A stretch of 64,000 nucleotides of DNA, taken from the NCBI RefSeq assembly GCF_013122565.1, contig NZ_CP053258.1; one strand, written 5' to 3'. Below, in pieces: positions 28,981 through 34,164 of this stretch (position 1 is its first letter; each line of letters begins with the position of its first letter). The position numbers and the translations under genes are program-made. Source of the stretch: Escherichia coli. Lineage in GTDB: Bacteria > Pseudomonadota > Gammaproteobacteria > Enterobacterales > Enterobacteriaceae. The notes under the pieces were generated by a model that was given only the letters and a program-made list of their open reading frames with translations, searched no databases and was not told the DNA's origin.

Positions 28981-29730
28981 ATGGCGGGCTTTTTTGACAA
29001 GCTGATTAACCGGAGCGTTACTGCAAATGCAGGCTGTGAACCAGAACCATCGGATGAGGAGGTTACCGATGAGTCGGTTGAAGATAGTTTGGCCAGTAGT
29101 GAAACGCGGACGCTACAAAAAATACGCGAAGCGACTCAGGAATTGCTCAAATACGGCCTGCTGGAAGAGGCCAGTAAGCCTAATCTGTACCGCATCGTAC
29201 TGAGCCATCCTGAAGAGGTTACTCGTATTCTGGAGCCTCTCGATCTGGATATCGGCATTGATGAGATCCGTGGCCTGCTGTATGTCAAAGTCAGGCTTGA
29301 TGAAACGCCTGCGCAGGATGAATGGGCCCACCCTCTGGTGAGACGGCAACGACTTAACCTGGAACAATCTTTATTAGTTGCCATACTGCGCCAACATTTT
29401 GTGGCCTGGGAGCAGGAAAGCGGAACCGGTGCCAGTCAGGCACAGATCGCCATCGATGATCTTCTCCCTCAACTCCAGATTTATCTTGGCGACCCGGGCA
29501 GTGAATCAAAAGAACGCACCCGATTGCTTACCCTGCTGGATCAATTAAAGGGGCATGGGCTGGTGACGTCGCCGGATGCACATGAGCGGATCGTCATCCG
29601 TCCGATCATTGCTCATCTTGCCGATCCGATCAATCTTCAGGCATTACTGGCATGGCTGCGAGAGCAAATTGCCCAGCAAACCTCTCCAAATGACGCGCCA
29701 GAAAAGGATAGCAGCGAGGAGGACGTATGA
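28981..29730 (+). CDS. jetB: Wadjet JetB (MksE-like subunit)
   Basis: 249 aa from MAGFFDKL; acidic termini; 5-bp gap from jetA; stop overlaps jetC start. Confidence 0.7.
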   Translation: MAGFFDKLINRSVTANAGCEPEPSDEEVTDESVEDSLASSETRTLQKIREATQELLKYGLLEEASKPNLYRIVLSHPEEVTRILEPLDLDIGIDEIRGLLYVKVRLDETPAQDEWAHPLVRRQRLNLEQSLLVAILRQHFVAWEQESGTGASQAQIAIDDLLPQLQIYLGDPGSESKERTRLLTLLDQLKGHGLVTSPDAHERIVIRPIIAHLADPINLQALLAWLREQIAQQTSPNDAPEKDSSEEDV

Positions 29731-32700
29731 ATCAGGTATCTGGCCTGGCTGGAAAGGAATCTTTCATTCTTACCCGTATTGAGTTGTTCAACTGGGGCGG
29801 TTTTCATGGATTGCATCAGGCAGCAATCCATCAGGATGGTACCGCCGTTATTGGCCCAACCGGGAGCGGAAAAACGACGTTGGTCGATGCCCTGATGACG
29901 CTGCTCTGCGCCAATCCTCGCTACAATCTTGCCTCAACCGGCGGCCATGAAAGCGACAGGGATCTTATCTCTTACGTGCGTGGCGTATCCGGCCCCGGTG
30001 ATGGCGGTGAGGGGCAATCGCATATTGCCAGACCGGGTAAAACCGTGACAGGTATTGCCGCTACGCTGGAGCGCGAAGGAAAGCAGGTCCGTCTGGGGGC
30101 GTTATTGTGGTTTGATTCCACCAGTTCCAGCGTGACGGATATGAAAAGGCTCTGGCTGTTCAGTGATAATCCCGGGCAGACGCTGGAGCACTGGCTAAAC
30201 GTTTACCATGAGGGTGGTACACGTTTGCTCCGACAGATGGAAAAAGAAGCCATCGGGCTTTGGACATACCCGAATAAAAAGCAGTATCTGGCGCGCCTGC
30301 GGGATTTCTTCGAGGTGGGGGAAAACGCGTTTACGTTGTTAAACCGGGCGGCAGGGTTAAAACAACTCAACAGTATTGATGAGATTTTTCGCGAGCTGGT
30401 GTTAGACGATCACTCCGCCTTTGATCGCGCGGCTGAAGTGGCCAATAGTTTTGATGGTCTGACTGAGATTCATCAGGAACTGGAAACCGCTCGCAAACAA
30501 CAGCAGTCTTTACAACCTGTCGCCCTGAGCTGGGAGAAGTACCAAAAGCAAGAGCGTCAACTGGCTGACTGGCTGACGCTGGAATCGCTGTTACCCCTCT
30601 GGTTTGCACAACAGGCAAGCCACCTCTGGCGGGAAAAGATTAACCTTCTTAACGCAAGGCTCGCTGAGGCACAAACCAGCGAAGAACAGCTCCAGTCACA
30701 GCTTGATTTGCAAAAAAAGGTGGTTAGCGACTGTATGCAGCGCTATCTCCAGGTCGGCGGTGCCAATATTGATGAACTGAACGAGCGTATCAAGGACTGG
30801 CAAAAAACGCTCGGCAGTCGAGAGGCCTTGGCACGTCAATATCAACAGCTGACCCGTAACCTTGGATTGCCGTCTGATCTGAGCCAACCACAGCTGGAGG
30901 CGAATCAGCATGAAGCCGAGGCCCGATGTGAGCAGATCGCCGTTGATATAAAGTTAAAACAGGAAGAAGCGTATCAAAAAGGTGCGCTTAGCCATCACAT
31001 TACCGAAGAGCTTCGGGAACGGGAAAATGAACGCGCCGAGATCGCGCGTCGCCCGGATTCTAACCTTCCCGCACATTATCAGGCGTTTCGTAGTGAGCTG
31101 GCAAAAGCGTTGAACGTGGATGAGTCTGAACTGCCTTTCGTCGCTGAACTGATACAGGTTAAACCGGAAGAGGCGCAATGGCGCGGTGCGATTGAGCGTG
31201 CTGTCGGGAGTAACAGGCTGCGTATTCTGGTTGCGCCTGAATCGGCACAGGAAGCGCTGCGCTGGGTAAATCAGCGCAACAACCGTCTGCATGTGCGGCT
31301 ACTGGAGGTCAAATTACCGCACTCTCCCGCCCGGTTTTTCGACGATGGCTTTACCCGCAAGCTGTTGTGGAAAGATCATCCGTGGCGAGAGGCCGTCAAA
31401 GCATTACTGGCCGAAAGCGACAGGCATTGTGTTGACAGCCCTGAACAACTGCATGACACGCCTCATGCTATGACGGTGCAGGGATTAATGTCTGGTAAAC
31501 AGCGTTTTTATGACAAGCATGATCAGAAACGCCTTGATGAAGACTGGCTGACGGGATTCGATAACCGCGATCGCCTGAACTTCCTTGCTAAAGAAATTGC
31601 CACGCTTCAGGAGCAGGTTAAAACCGCAAACGCGGCATTTGAGTTTGCGAAAGGCGAGGTGGGGCTTTTGCAAAATCAGGCTGCTTCCTTCCAGAAAATA
31701 GAACAAATTGATTTCGATAGCATCGATGTTCCCGGCGCGAAGAGCCAACTGGACGCGCTCAGGGAGCGGCTGGAAAATCTGACCCGCCCGGATTCTGACG
31801 CCAGTGTAGCGAAAGCAAAACTTGATGAGGCTCAAACGATTGAATCTGAACTCGATAAGCAGCTCAGAGCTGCCAATAAAGTCACTAACGTGCTGGATAC
31901 AGAACTCACATTAGCCCGTGCCGCGGAACGTAAGGCCCAGCAAACTGCACAACAAGGTATGAAGGAAGAAGAGCGAGAGTTGTGCGCGTCACATTTTCCA
32001 GTAGTGACTTTGGAGCAATTGCCTGACATTCGCGATTTAGAACGTCAACATGAGCGGGGAATTCAGCATGAAATTGAAAGAGTTAAAGCTGAACTACATC
32101 GACTGAACATTGAGTTGACCAAACGTATGTCTGAAGCCAAACGTGTGGATACCGGGGCGCTCGTTGAGGCAGGGGCAGATTTGGACGATATTCCTGTTTA
32201 TTTACAGCGTTTGCAGGAACTGACCGAAGAAGCCCTGCCGGAAAAGCTCAATCGCTTCCTTGATTATCTTAATCGTTCATCCGATGACGGCGTAACACAA
32301 CTGCTTAGCCATATTGAGCATGAGGTGCTGGTAATTGAGGAGCGCCTCAATGAACTCAATGAAACCATGTTCAGGGTTGATTTTCAGCCGGATCGCTACC
32401 TGCGTCTGGATACCAAAAAAGTTGTCCATGAAAGCCTGCGCACGCTTGAAAAAGCACAGCGTCAGCTAAATGCCGCACGATTTGTTGATGATAATGGCGA
32501 GAGCCATTATAAGGCTTTGCAGGTACTGGTGGCGCAATTGCGGGATGCTTGTGAACGAAACCGTACCCTGGGAGCAAAAGCGCTACTGGATCCCCGTTTT
32601 CGACTCGAGTTCGCCGTATCGGTGATGGATCGTCAGAGCGGAAATGTGATTGAGTCTCGTACCGGCTCACAGGGTGGTAGCGGCGGAGAAAAAGAGATCA

Positions 32701-33014: not shown

Positions 33015-33015
33015 G

Positions 33016-34164
33016 ATGTATTCCCCAGATGAATTGCGTGAAAAGCTTGCCCGGCAGTGGGATAGCGCAAAACTTCGGGCTGAACGCTTACTGTCCCCCG
33101 GTAACTGGCCGCTCTGCCTGCCTATTGGTAAACCTTCCACGAAAATATTTGCAGAGCAGACTCAGCGCGTTTTGCAGCACGTACAGCGATGGAGGCAAGT
33201 TGCGGTTGGGCACGTGGAATGGGAAGCGGTGAGTTTTCGGGCAAGTGATACACCAGTATTAATGCCGTTGCGCTGGATTCTGAATAGCCCTTCTGAGTGG
33301 ATCAACGCCGCTGCGGATCCGGTTGTGAGCCGGGAATTTCGCTTGCTGGAAGGAATTATTGAACAAGTTAATCCCATTTTTCACCCGCTGTTGGTAAAGC
33401 ATCGCTCTCTCTGGCGGCACAAAGATCCGCAGGGCGTCATCAGCGCCGCCACGCTGGCCTGCCGACTAGAGCCGGGCTGCGCAAAAGGGCTGCCGTTAAG
33501 ATTGCTTTCCGGGCAAGGAGTGGATACCAAATTTATCGAGAATAATATTTCGTTATTAACCCGACTGTTAGACGTGCGGTTTTCAGGAGAAGCCAGCGAG
33601 CAGGGATTAACAACTTTTCTTGATGCTTTTGATGAGTCCAGTCACTGGGTTTTAGTTGTACCATTATCACCCGGCTTACTTCCTTTTAAAAAATGCCGGG
33701 TAACAACGGCGGAACTGGCAGAAACAACATTACCCGCGTCGCAAGTGCTGGTGGTTGAAAATGAGCAGTGTCTGCATCATCTTCCAGCATTATCTGACAC
33801 TATCGCGATTTTAGGCTGTGGCCTGGACGTGCAATGGCTATCCAGTTCGGTTCTGGATGAAAAACGCGTTGCCTATTGGGGGGACATGGATAGCTGGGGA
33901 TTACTGATGCTGGCGAGAGCCAGGCGCTGTCGTCCGACCCTTGATGCCCTGCTCATGAACCGTGAGTTGTTTGAGCAGTATGCCAGTCATAGCGCCGTTC
34001 CAGAACCGGTCATAGCGAAGGAAGCGGTACCCGATGGCTTGCTTAACGAAGAGGCCGATTTTTATCGCTACTTAACCCGTTTACCGCGTGGTCGTCTGGA
34101 GCAGGAGTTTTTGCCAGTGGGGATTGCGGAAGAGGCGCTTCTCAGGTGGGGAAAAGAGAGTTAA
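33016..34164 (+). CDS. jetD: Wadjet JetD (MksG-like Toprim-domain nuclease)
   Basis: 382 aa from MYSPDELREK; Toprim-like acidic motifs VVENE and YWGDMDSWG in C-terminal half; track ORF 32980 is an upstream extension. Confidence 0.75.
   Translation: MYSPDELREKLARQWDSAKLRAERLLSPGNWPLCLPIGKPSTKIFAEQTQRVLQHVQRWRQVAVGHVEWEAVSFRASDTPVLMPLRWILNSPSEWINAAADPVVSREFRLLEGIIEQVNPIFHPLLVKHRSLWRHKDPQGVISAATLACRLEPGCAKGLPLRLLSGQGVDTKFIENNISLLTRLLDVRFSGEASEQGLTTFLDAFDESSHWVLVVPLSPGLLPFKKCRVTTAELAETTLPASQVLVVENEQCLHHLPALSDTIAILGCGLDVQWLSSSVLDEKRVAYWGDMDSWGLLMLARARRCRPTLDALLMNRELFEQYASHSAVPEPVIAKEAVPDGLLNEEADFYRYLTRLPRGRLEQEFLPVGIAEEALLRWGKES

What the first reader, a model, noticed from the sequence alone, without database searches (positions are those of the whole stretch)
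29727..34164. Catalytic motifs of JetC and JetD appear intact
The JetC ATPase motifs (Walker A, signature, Walker B with the catalytic Glu in ILDEAF) and the JetD Toprim acidic residues are all present, and no frameshifts or internal stops interrupt any of the four genes. The system is therefore probably functional rather than a decaying remnant.
Basis: seen in the sequence. Interest (0 to 1): 0.4.

Follow-up and report, generated by a model that had tools for sequence, protein, structure and literature searches.

The report
Intact, already-characterised E. coli Wadjet operon

Summary

- **Genes:** window 27479-34164 (+) carries jetA (27479-28975), jetB (28981-29730), jetC (29727-33014) and jetD (33016-34164). 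None has a frameshift or internal stop.
- **Identity:** all four proteins are 100% identical over their full length to the PDB chains of E. coli GF4-3 JetABCD (8as8, 8bfn, 8q72). The only difference is the engineered E248A in the deposited JetD.
- **JetC motifs:** Walker A GPTGSGKT (aa 43-50, K49), signature SGGE (aa 985-988), Walker B ILDEAF (aa 1019-1024, catalytic E1022).
- **JetD motifs:** Toprim E248, D290 and D292.
- **Published tests:** JetC(E1022Q) and JetD(E248A) abolish plasmid restriction in vivo and DNA cleavage in vitro.
- **Selection:** dN/dS against orthologues in other genera is about 0.04-0.13.
- **Contrast:** other E. coli genomes carry truly decayed remnants at the same glcA-pheV locus.
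- **Open point:** native expression has not been shown.

In passing I found a perfect CRP-type palindrome (TGTGA-N6-TCACA, 27375-27390) about 104 nt upstream of jetA. It is conserved across genera and no paper in the searched library connects Wadjet with CRP. Interest is low and the novelty class is "already known".

The parts
27375..27390 (.). Perfect CRP-type palindrome TGTGATAAAAATCACA in the jetA upstream region (candidate operator; inferred, not tested)
   Evidence: 2 perfect TGTGA-N6-TCACA sites in 64 kb against 0.03 expected. The other lies upstream of galP. The site is kept at -102 to -105 from the jetA ATG in 8/9 genome loci and 9/10 metagenome loci.
27428..27438 (+). Conserved block GAATTATCGT, candidate -10 region of the native jet promoter (inferred)
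   Evidence: Invariant in alignment A1 across E. coli, Salmonella, Pectobacterium and Klebsiella. The consensus sigma-70 scan found no promoter between glcA and jetA, as expected for an activator-dependent promoter with a poor -35.
27479..28975 (+). jetA, kleisin subunit (498 aa, DUF3375)
   Evidence: 100% identical to PDB 8q72_E / 8as8_E JetA. Pfam PF11855 and PADLOC JetA1 match full length.
28981..29730 (+). jetB, KITE subunit (249 aa, DUF4194); true ATG is 15 nt inside the TTG-started ORF 28966-29730
   Evidence: 100% identical to PDB 8as8_C JetB residues 1-249. Pfam PF13835 and PADLOC JetB1.
29727..33014 (+). jetC, SMC-type ATPase (1095 aa); its ATG overlaps the jetB stop (ATGA)
   Evidence: 100% identical over 1-1095 to PDB 8as8_A / 8bfn / 8q72 JetC. 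Pfam AAA_29 (aa 15-72) and SbcC_Walker_B (aa 952-1040), PADLOC JetC1.
29853..29876 (+). JetC Walker A / P-loop GPTGSGKT (aa 43-50; K49 codon 29871-29873)
   Evidence: lies inside the Pfam AAA_29 match.
32679..32690 (+). JetC ABC/SMC signature motif S985-G-G-E988 (within GSQGGSGGEKE)
   Evidence: inside the full-length SbcC_Walker_B match.
32781..32798 (+). JetC Walker B ILDEAF (aa 1019-1024); catalytic E1022 codon at 32790-32792
   Evidence: It aligns with the ILDQAF of the P. aeruginosa JetC(EQ) structure 8dk1. E1022Q is ATPase-dead and restriction-dead.
33016..34164 (+). jetD, Toprim nuclease subunit (382 aa; DUF3322 arm/CAP + JetD_C Toprim); starts 1 nt after the jetC stop
   Evidence: Identical to PDB 8q72_M residues 1-382 except the engineered E248A. 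Pfam PF11795 + PF09983, PADLOC JetD1.
33757..33759 (+). JetD Toprim glutamate E248 (VVENE)
   Evidence: E248A abolishes cleavage and restriction.
33883..33891 (+). JetD Toprim DxD motif D290-M-D292 (YWGDMDSWG)
   Evidence: Conserved in 7til JetD and 8b7f MksG. Named as Mg2+ ligands equivalent to TopoVI-A D249/D251.
27092..27120 (+). glcA terminator hairpin; left limit of the jet intergenic/promoter region
   Evidence: 13-bp stem followed by a T run. glcA is 25384-27066 by synteny with annotated genomes.
34521..34596 (-). tRNA-Phe (pheV), right-hand neighbour of the operon
   Evidence: In strain CX12 a separate island is inserted at the tRNA 3' end, and homology with the window stops at 34543.

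Best explanation
Window 27479-34164 is an intact type I Wadjet (JetABCD, also called MksBEFG or EptABCD) operon. Its protein sequences are those of the E. coli GF4-3 'ecJET' reference system.

Mechanism, taken from published work on these same proteins:
- JetC dimers (SMC ATPase), JetA (kleisin) and JetB (KITE) form a dimer-of-dimers DNA motor that loads on DNA and extrudes loops using ATP hydrolysis. This needs Walker A K49, signature S985 and Walker B E1022.
- On a small circular DNA (up to roughly 100 kb) extrusion runs to completion and the two motor units stall against each other, leaving a bent U-shaped residual segment.
- A JetD dimer binds, kinks that segment into a V shape, and its Toprim sites (E248, D290, D292 with Mg2+) cut both strands, linearising the plasmid.
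- The chromosome and linear DNA escape because extrusion can never be completed on them.

Shown here: gene integrity, motif register, identity to the solved and assayed proteins, and purifying selection. Taken from the literature: activity and mechanism. Inferred: that the operon is expressed and active in its native chromosome, possibly from a cAMP-CRP-dependent promoter.
For: - 100% full-length identity of all four products to PDB chains named JetA/B/C/D, entries 8as8, 8bfn and 8q72.
- The wild-type cysteines that the published Cys-less variant replaces (C61, C336, C401, C568, C753, C942, C1006) are all present.
- Motif positions were verified codon by codon.
- Liu et al. 2022 state that the operon came from E. 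coli GF4-3, that it eliminated six circular plasmids, that E1022Q and E248A abolish this, and that E248/D290/D292 are the Toprim Mg2+ ligands.
- Roisne-Hamelin et al. 2023 give the structural mechanism.
- Type I assignment rests on full-length PADLOC JetA1/B1/C1/D1 matches and on Pfam domains.
- Gene junctions are tight or overlapping, typical of one operon.
- dN/dS is 0.04-0.13 against Klebsiella, Salmonella and Pectobacterium orthologues.
- The exact JetC sequence exists in one NCBI E. coli chromosome (QJU27023.1) and in one assembled sequencing run.
Against: - No evidence here or in the papers read shows that the operon is transcribed in its native context. The published in vivo assays used an arabinose promoter in K-12.
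- The sigma-70 consensus scan finds no strong promoter between glcA and jetA.
- The strain of origin cannot be named from the tools. Only the protein identity is shown.
Confidence: 0.93

Rival explanations
1. The operon is intact and encodes active proteins but is transcriptionally silent or only conditionally expressed in its native host, for example only at high cAMP-CRP. It would then give little or no plasmid restriction under ordinary conditions.
For: - No consensus sigma-70 promoter lies upstream of jetA.
- The upstream region is AT-rich at 38% GC.
- A perfect CRP-type site sits where a class I activator site would be expected.
- Published function was measured only from Pbad.
Against: - Strong purifying selection on all four genes across genera argues the system is used.
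- The upstream blocks are conserved, which suggests a working regulated promoter rather than none.
Confidence: 0.2
2. The locus is a decaying remnant: the motifs look right but the system is inactivated by subtle lesions.
For: Decay does happen at this locus in other E. coli:
- a jetA-jetD deletion fusion in W444;
- a jetA 5' stub next to ISEc52 in LHM10-1;
- jetD 3' stubs next to IS1 or a T6SS island.

A Kluyvera copy has a jetA frameshift.
Against: All four products in the window are residue-identical to the proteins that were purified, assayed and solved. There are no stops or frameshifts.
Confidence: 0.02
3. It is an MksBEF/MukBEF-like condensin for chromosome organisation rather than a defence nuclease.
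For: JetABC subunits resemble MukBEF in structure. The JetC cluster contains members named 'Chromosome partition protein Smc' by some sources.
Against: A fourth gene, jetD, with an intact Toprim site is present and translationally linked. Published assays show plasmid cleavage. PADLOC assigns all four to Wadjet type I.
Confidence: 0.02

Closest known systems
E. coli GF4-3 JetABCD ('ecJET', type I Wadjet; PDB 8as8, 8bfn, 8q72, 9qxr/9qxs; Liu et al. 2022, Roisne-Hamelin et al. 2023/2024)
   Same: All four proteins are identical in every residue and in length. Operon order and gene junctions are as published. All mutated or assayed residues are present: E1022, E248, D290, D292, F919 and the native cysteines.
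   Different: Nothing at the protein level. The window adds the native chromosomal context (glcA - jetABCD - pheV - yqgA - speC) and the native upstream region, neither of which comes up in the passages of the papers I searched.
Pseudomonas aeruginosa PA14 JetABCD (PDB 8dk1-8dk3, 7til; Deep et al. 2022, cited from my own knowledge)
   Same: Same type I architecture. The alignment is collinear over the whole length, with conserved Walker A, signature, Walker B and Toprim E/DxD.
   Different: A clearly diverged orthologue: bit scores are roughly 55-70% of the self-match scores for JetA, JetC, JetB and JetD (754/1083, 1570/2445, 311/535 and 500/866). Different host.
Corynebacterium glutamicum MksBEFG (MksG, PDB 8b7f; Weiss et al. 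2023, PMC10123090)
   Same: The JetD/MksG Toprim glutamate and DxD align. Same four-component logic.
   Different: Only a remote sequence relationship (E = 1e-10 for JetD against MksG). The N-terminal arm is different.
E. coli MukBEF condensin
   Same: SMC-kleisin-KITE architecture, with a long signature-to-Walker B spacing of MukB type. JetABC domains resemble MukBEF.
   Different: MukBEF has no nuclease subunit, and the dimer-of-dimers geometry is different. Its function is chromosome organisation, not plasmid cleavage.

Membership tests
Type I Wadjet (JetABCD) | Four co-directional, tightly linked genes in the order jetA-jetB-jetC-jetD | tested here: met
   27479-28975, 28981-29730, 29727-33014 and 33016-34164, all on the + strand. 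Gaps and overlaps are +5, -4 and +1 nt.
Type I Wadjet (JetABCD) | JetA kleisin with a DUF3375 domain | tested here: met
   Pfam PF11855 E = 2e-106, covering 4-472 of 474 profile positions. PADLOC JetA1 E = 5e-272.
Type I Wadjet (JetABCD) | JetB KITE/MukE-like protein with a DUF4194 domain | tested here: met
   Pfam PF13835 E = 4.5e-28. PADLOC JetB1 E = 1e-116.
Type I Wadjet (JetABCD) | JetC SMC/MukB-like ATPase: N-terminal Walker A and C-terminal signature + Walker B with catalytic Glu, separated by a long coiled coil and hinge | tested here: met
   Walker A at aa 43-50, SGGE at 985-988, ILDEAF at 1019-1024. Pfam AAA_29 and SbcC_Walker_B at the two ends. Identical to the solved JetC. E1022 aligns with the EQ position of 8dk1.
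Type I Wadjet (JetABCD) | JetD with an N-terminal DUF3322 arm/CAP and a C-terminal Toprim domain carrying E...DxD | tested here: met
   Pfam PF11795 + PF09983. E248, D290 and D292 are present and aligned with 8q72, 7til and 8b7f.
Type I Wadjet (JetABCD) | Type I rather than type II or III subunit families | tested here: met
   The best PADLOC models are JetA1, JetB1, JetC1 and JetD1 at full length. JetC2 appears only at E = 1e-4 over a fragment.
Type I Wadjet (JetABCD) | ATP-dependent cleavage of circular DNA and plasmid restriction in vivo | not testable with these tools
   Reported for the identical protein set by Liu et al. 2022 and Roisne-Hamelin et al. 2023. Not measured for this chromosome's native expression.

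The most novel reading that the evidence does not exclude
The native jetABCD promoter may be a class I cAMP-CRP-dependent promoter.
- A perfect CRP core (TGTGATAAAAATCACA, 27375-27390) lies about 104 nt upstream of the jetA ATG.
- It is roughly 60-62 nt upstream of the transcription start expected from the conserved GAATTATCGT block.
- It is retained at the same position in Salmonella, Klebsiella, Pectobacterium, Erwinia, Cedecea and metagenomic relatives.

If real, plasmid restriction by Wadjet in enterobacteria would be tied to carbon status: off in glucose, on in starvation or stationary phase. No paper in the searched library links Wadjet to CRP.
Probability: 0.35. Interest if true: 0.4.

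Novelty: already known. Interest (0 to 1): 0.1.

Why it matters
For the scan, this finding can be closed. The locus is the reference E. coli Wadjet/JET anti-plasmid system, fully intact, and needs no new explanation.

It has practical value in three ways:
- It marks the host strain as likely refractory to small circular plasmids.
- It supplies the native chromosomal setting of a system studied only from an artificial promoter. The operon sits between glcA and tRNA-Phe (pheV), where other E. coli strains show deletion or IS-mediated decay of the same operon.
- It exposes a conserved CRP-type operator candidate that could be tested to learn how Wadjet is regulated.

Tried and rejected
- **Island boundaries.** I searched for a direct repeat of the pheV 3' end upstream of jetA and for any flanking direct or inverted repeats of the cassette. 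Nothing rose above chance. In CX12 a separate island sits at the pheV 3' end, so jetABCD lies outside that island.
- **Promoter scan.** There is no consensus sigma-70 site between glcA and jetA. Hits inside the genes are at the shuffled-control level, 9 found against 6.4 expected.
- **Remote PDB search for the signature motif.** A search with the JetC head fragment (aa 940-1058, max E = 10), meant to align the signature motif to MukB, Rad50 or SbcC, returned only JetC entries. That evidence is weaker.
- **Literature on the signature motif.** The word 'signature' does not occur in the main text of Liu et al. 2022 or the 2025 hinge paper. The search of the 2023 preprint for it failed on a malformed search term.
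- **RefSeq annotation.** It suggested jetC is broken in the eight complete genomes that carry the operon. Direct translation of CX12 shows an uninterrupted 1095-codon frame, so this is an annotation artefact.
- **Plasmid-borne copies.** None at megablast sensitivity among 72,556 plasmids.
- **Rfam.** No RNA family lies within or beside the operon other than tRNA-Phe.
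Full report
**1. What is at the coordinates**

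The ORF list and translations show four co-directional reading frames on the + strand:
- 27479-28975 (498 aa)
- 28966-29730
- 29727-33014 (1095 aa)
- 32980-34164

The mechanical ORF starts of the second and fourth (TTG 28966 and TTG 32980) lie upstream of the real starts. Alignment to solved structures places the initiator Met of JetB at ATG 28981 (249 aa) and of JetD at ATG 33016 (382 aa).

The junctions are those of one operon. jetA's TAA is followed 5 nt later by the jetB ATG. The jetB stop overlaps the jetC start (ATGA). The jetD ATG follows the jetC TAG by one base. Shine-Dalgarno-like purine runs precede jetB, jetC and jetD. The finding's coordinates, 29727-34164, are exactly jetC start to jetD stop.

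**2. Check of the observation**

JetC carries three motifs:
- Walker A GPTGSGKT at aa 43-50 (nt 29853-29876, K49).
- The SMC/ABC signature S985-G-G-E988 inside GSQGGSGGEKE (nt 32679-32690).
- Walker B ILDEAF at aa 1019-1024 (nt 32781-32798), with E1022 encoded by GAA at 32790-32792.

JetD carries E248 in VVENE (nt 33757-33759) and D290/D292 in YWGDMDSWG (nt 33883-33891). Each frame has only its terminal stop.

**3. Are the motifs in register with the true catalytic positions?**

A search of the PDB sequence set gave a decisive answer.
- JetC is 100% identical over residues 1-1095 to chain A of 8as8/8bfn/8q72.
- JetA is identical to 8q72_E and 8as8_E.
- JetB is identical to 8as8_C.
- JetD is identical to 8q72_M except at residue 248, where the deposited protein is the engineered E248A and the window has the wild-type Glu.

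The second JetC sequence in the PDB (9qxt and related entries) differs from the window at C61, C336, C401, C568, C753, C942 and C1006, plus position 721 where the PDB chain has Cys. The first seven are the substitutions listed for the published Cys-less variant. The window therefore has the wild-type residue at each of these positions.

In the P. aeruginosa JetC(EQ) structure 8dk1, the sequence ILDQAF aligns column for column with the window's ILDEAF. The Toprim Glu and DxD align with those of P. aeruginosa JetD (7til) and C. glutamicum MksG (8b7f).

Liu et al. 2022 (bioRxiv 10.1101/2022.10.04.510915) state three things:
- JetC(E1022Q) and JetD(E248A) abolish plasmid loss in vivo, and ATP hydrolysis or DNA cleavage in vitro.
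- E248, D290 and D292 correspond to the Mg2+-coordinating E197, D249 and D251 of topoisomerase VI-A.

The signature motif is not discussed by name in the main text of Liu et al. 2022 or the 2025 hinge paper. My search of the 2023 preprint for the word failed on a malformed term. Its register rests on two things. The first is the full-length Pfam SbcC_Walker_B match at aa 952-1040. This is the weakest of the three JetC motif checks, but it is consistent.

**4. Family assignment**

Pfam gives DUF3375 (JetA), DUF4194 (JetB), AAA_29 + SbcC_Walker_B (JetC) and DUF3322 + JetD_C (JetD), all above their curated cut-offs. PADLOC's best models are JetA1, JetB1, JetC1 and JetD1 at full length. Every sequence-level defining feature of type I Wadjet that I could test is met.

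**5. How it works**

The mechanism comes from experiments on this same protein set.
- JetABC is a dimer-of-dimers SMC motor that extrudes DNA using ATP.
- On circular DNA below roughly 100 kb, extrusion goes to completion. The two motor units stall and hold a U-shaped residual segment.
- A JetD dimer docks (JetC F919 inserts into a JetD pocket; F919 is present). It kinks the DNA into a V shape and the paired Toprim sites cut both strands.
- Linear DNA and the chromosome escape.

What I show here is integrity and identity. The activity is literature. Native expression is inference.

**6. Independent evidence against decay**

Nei-Gojobori dN/dS between the window and orthologues in K. pneumoniae, S. 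enterica subsp. salamae and Pectobacterium is 0.04-0.13 for all four genes, at dS of 0.27-0.67. Against E. coli CX12 it is 0.04-0.31, on few changes.

The contrast with other E. coli is informative. Of 5,426 complete genomes, only 8 carry the whole operon, at 98.6% nucleotide identity. Another 18 carry fragments at the same locus:
- In W444, window positions 27569-33145 are deleted, joining the first 30 codons' worth of jetA sequence to jetD from about codon 44.
- In LHM10-1, only the first 322 nt of jetA remain, next to an ISEc52.
- In PT62 and PapRG-06-5, only about 600-640 nt of the jetD 3' end remain, next to an IS1 or a T6SS island.

Real remnants exist, and the window's copy is not one of them.

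**7. Context**

The operon lies between glcDEFGBA (glcB 22858-25029, glcA 25384-27066) and tRNA-Phe (34521-34596, - strand), yqgA and speC.
- Its GC content (51.4%) equals that of the window (51.5%).
- The core flanks are only 98.2-98.3% identical to the best of the complete genomes. This is similar to the 98.6% of the operon itself. It suggests long residence at this locus rather than recent import.
- In CX12 an additional CP4-like island is inserted at the pheV 3' end. Homology with the window runs to 34543, so jetABCD lies outside that island.
- No tRNA-derived direct repeat bounds the cassette.
- Across genera the shared DNA runs from about 27220 (27461 in Klebsiella) to the jetD stop.
- In K. 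pneumoniae the cassette is again next to yqgA/speC, with integrase fragments in between.
- In Salmonella it sits beside AbiE and a type I restriction-modification system.
- No copy is found on 72,556 plasmids.
- The exact JetC sequence is on record once in an NCBI E. coli chromosome of 4.82 Mb (QJU27023.1) and once in an assembled sequencing run.

**8. Seen in passing: a candidate regulator site**

The 358-nt region between the glcA terminator (27092-27120) and jetA is AT-rich (38% GC) and has no consensus sigma-70 promoter. It does contain a perfect CRP core, TGTGATAAAAATCACA, at 27375-27390.

- **Rarity.** Only two such perfect sites occur in the 64-kb window, against 0.03 expected. The other lies upstream of galP, which to my knowledge is a CRP-activated gene.
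- **Conservation.** Aligning jetA upstream regions from E. coli, Salmonella, Pectobacterium and Klebsiella shows three conserved blocks: the palindrome, GAATTATCGT (27428-27438), and the 17 nt before the ATG. They hold even where the Klebsiella sequence has otherwise diverged.
- **Position.** The palindrome (right half TCACA or TCGCA) sits at -102 to -105 from the ATG in 8 of 9 genome loci. The same holds in 9 of 10 metagenome loci with enough upstream sequence.
- **Exceptions.** One is a Kluyvera copy with a 1-bp deletion in the spacer, which also has a frameshifted jetA. The other is a metagenome contig rearranged upstream of about -82.
- **Geometry.** If the conserved AATTAT/TATCGT is the -10, the site centre (27382.5) lies about 60-63 nt upstream of the start. 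That is the class I CRP arrangement.

This is inference only. The relatives are close, so conservation is only moderately informative. No paper in the searched library connects Wadjet with CRP.

**9. Verdict**

Observation confirmed; interpretation supported. The locus is the already-characterised E. coli type I Wadjet/JET system in its native chromosomal setting. The novelty class is 'already known' and interest is low. The only loose ends are native expression and the untested CRP-site hypothesis.

Noticed in passing
window 27375-27390 (and 27428-27438): A perfect CRP-type palindrome, TGTGATAAAAATCACA, lies about 104 nt upstream of jetA, followed by the conserved block GAATTATCGT. Only one other perfect site exists in the window (56821-56836, upstream of galP). 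The palindrome is conserved at the same distance in most relatives across genera. It may be a class I cAMP-CRP promoter for Wadjet.
   Followed up: partly
L001 11249-14536 (E. coli CX12, NZ_CP073719.1) and the seven other complete genomes: RefSeq/PGAP annotates jetC as two pieces: a 156-nt 'ATP-binding protein, incomplete' and a 1347-nt 'SbcC/MukB-like Walker B domain' CDS. The 1095-codon frame in CX12 is uninterrupted. This is an annotation artefact that would wrongly suggest a broken gene.
   Followed up: partly
L002 6001-7109 (W444); L003 6001-6322 (LHM10-1); L016 4979-5638 (PT62); L017 4978-5598 (PapRG-06-5): Other E. coli strains carry real Wadjet remnants at the same glcA-pheV locus: a jetA-jetD deletion fusion still annotated as a 375-aa 'JetD domain' protein, a jetA 5' stub next to ISEc52, and jetD 3' stubs next to IS1 or a T6SS island.
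   Followed up: yes
L015 (Kluyvera genomosp. 3 CP022114.1), jetA 5' end and upstream: This copy has a 1-nt deletion around jetA codon 30 (frameshift with early stops). It also has a 1-bp deletion in the spacer of the upstream palindrome (TGTGACAAAATCACA). It looks like a decaying copy.
   Followed up: partly
L005, L007, L009 (K. pneumoniae, S. enterica subsp. salamae, Pectobacterium brasiliense): The same cassette (87-89% nucleotide identity) sits in different neighbourhoods. In Klebsiella it is again next to yqgA/speC with integrase fragments. In Salmonella it is beside AbiEi/AbiEii and a type I restriction-modification system. In Pectobacterium it is beside an IS4 transposase and SLFN/AlbA_2 and HATPase genes. 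A 92-nt segment (window 34245-34336) reappears in Salmonella on the far side of AbiE.
   Followed up: partly
window 28966 and 32980: The mechanical ORF starts (TTG) of jetB and jetD lie 5 and 12 codons upstream of the true ATG starts (28981 and 33016) defined by the solved proteins. The apparent 35-nt jetC/jetD overlap is therefore not real.
   Followed up: yes
window 1-22000 and 39001-64000: The core flanks (gss, pitB and glc genes; nupG to speB including galP, metK and speA) are at most 98.2-98.3% identical to any of 5,426 complete RefSeq E. coli genomes. The source lineage is either rather divergent or absent from that collection.
   Followed up: no
window 25084-25305 (-); 46429-46498 and 46515-46585 (+): Rfam finds the C0719 sRNA between glcB and glcA, and two naRNA4 (REP-type) elements. 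These are ordinary E. coli features.
   Followed up: no
L007 6378-7004, L009 3084-3692, L010 2054-2804: Gene callers give shorter or split jetB products (208, 202, and 65+195 aa) in some Salmonella and Pectobacterium contigs. This suggests variation, start-site ambiguity or frameshifts in the acidic N-terminal region of JetB.
   Followed up: no
window 27067-34520: From my memory of the K-12 map (not tested here), K-12 has the yghJ/sslE, pppA and yghD-G type II secretion remnants between glcA and pheV. In this window that interval holds only jetABCD.
   Followed up: no
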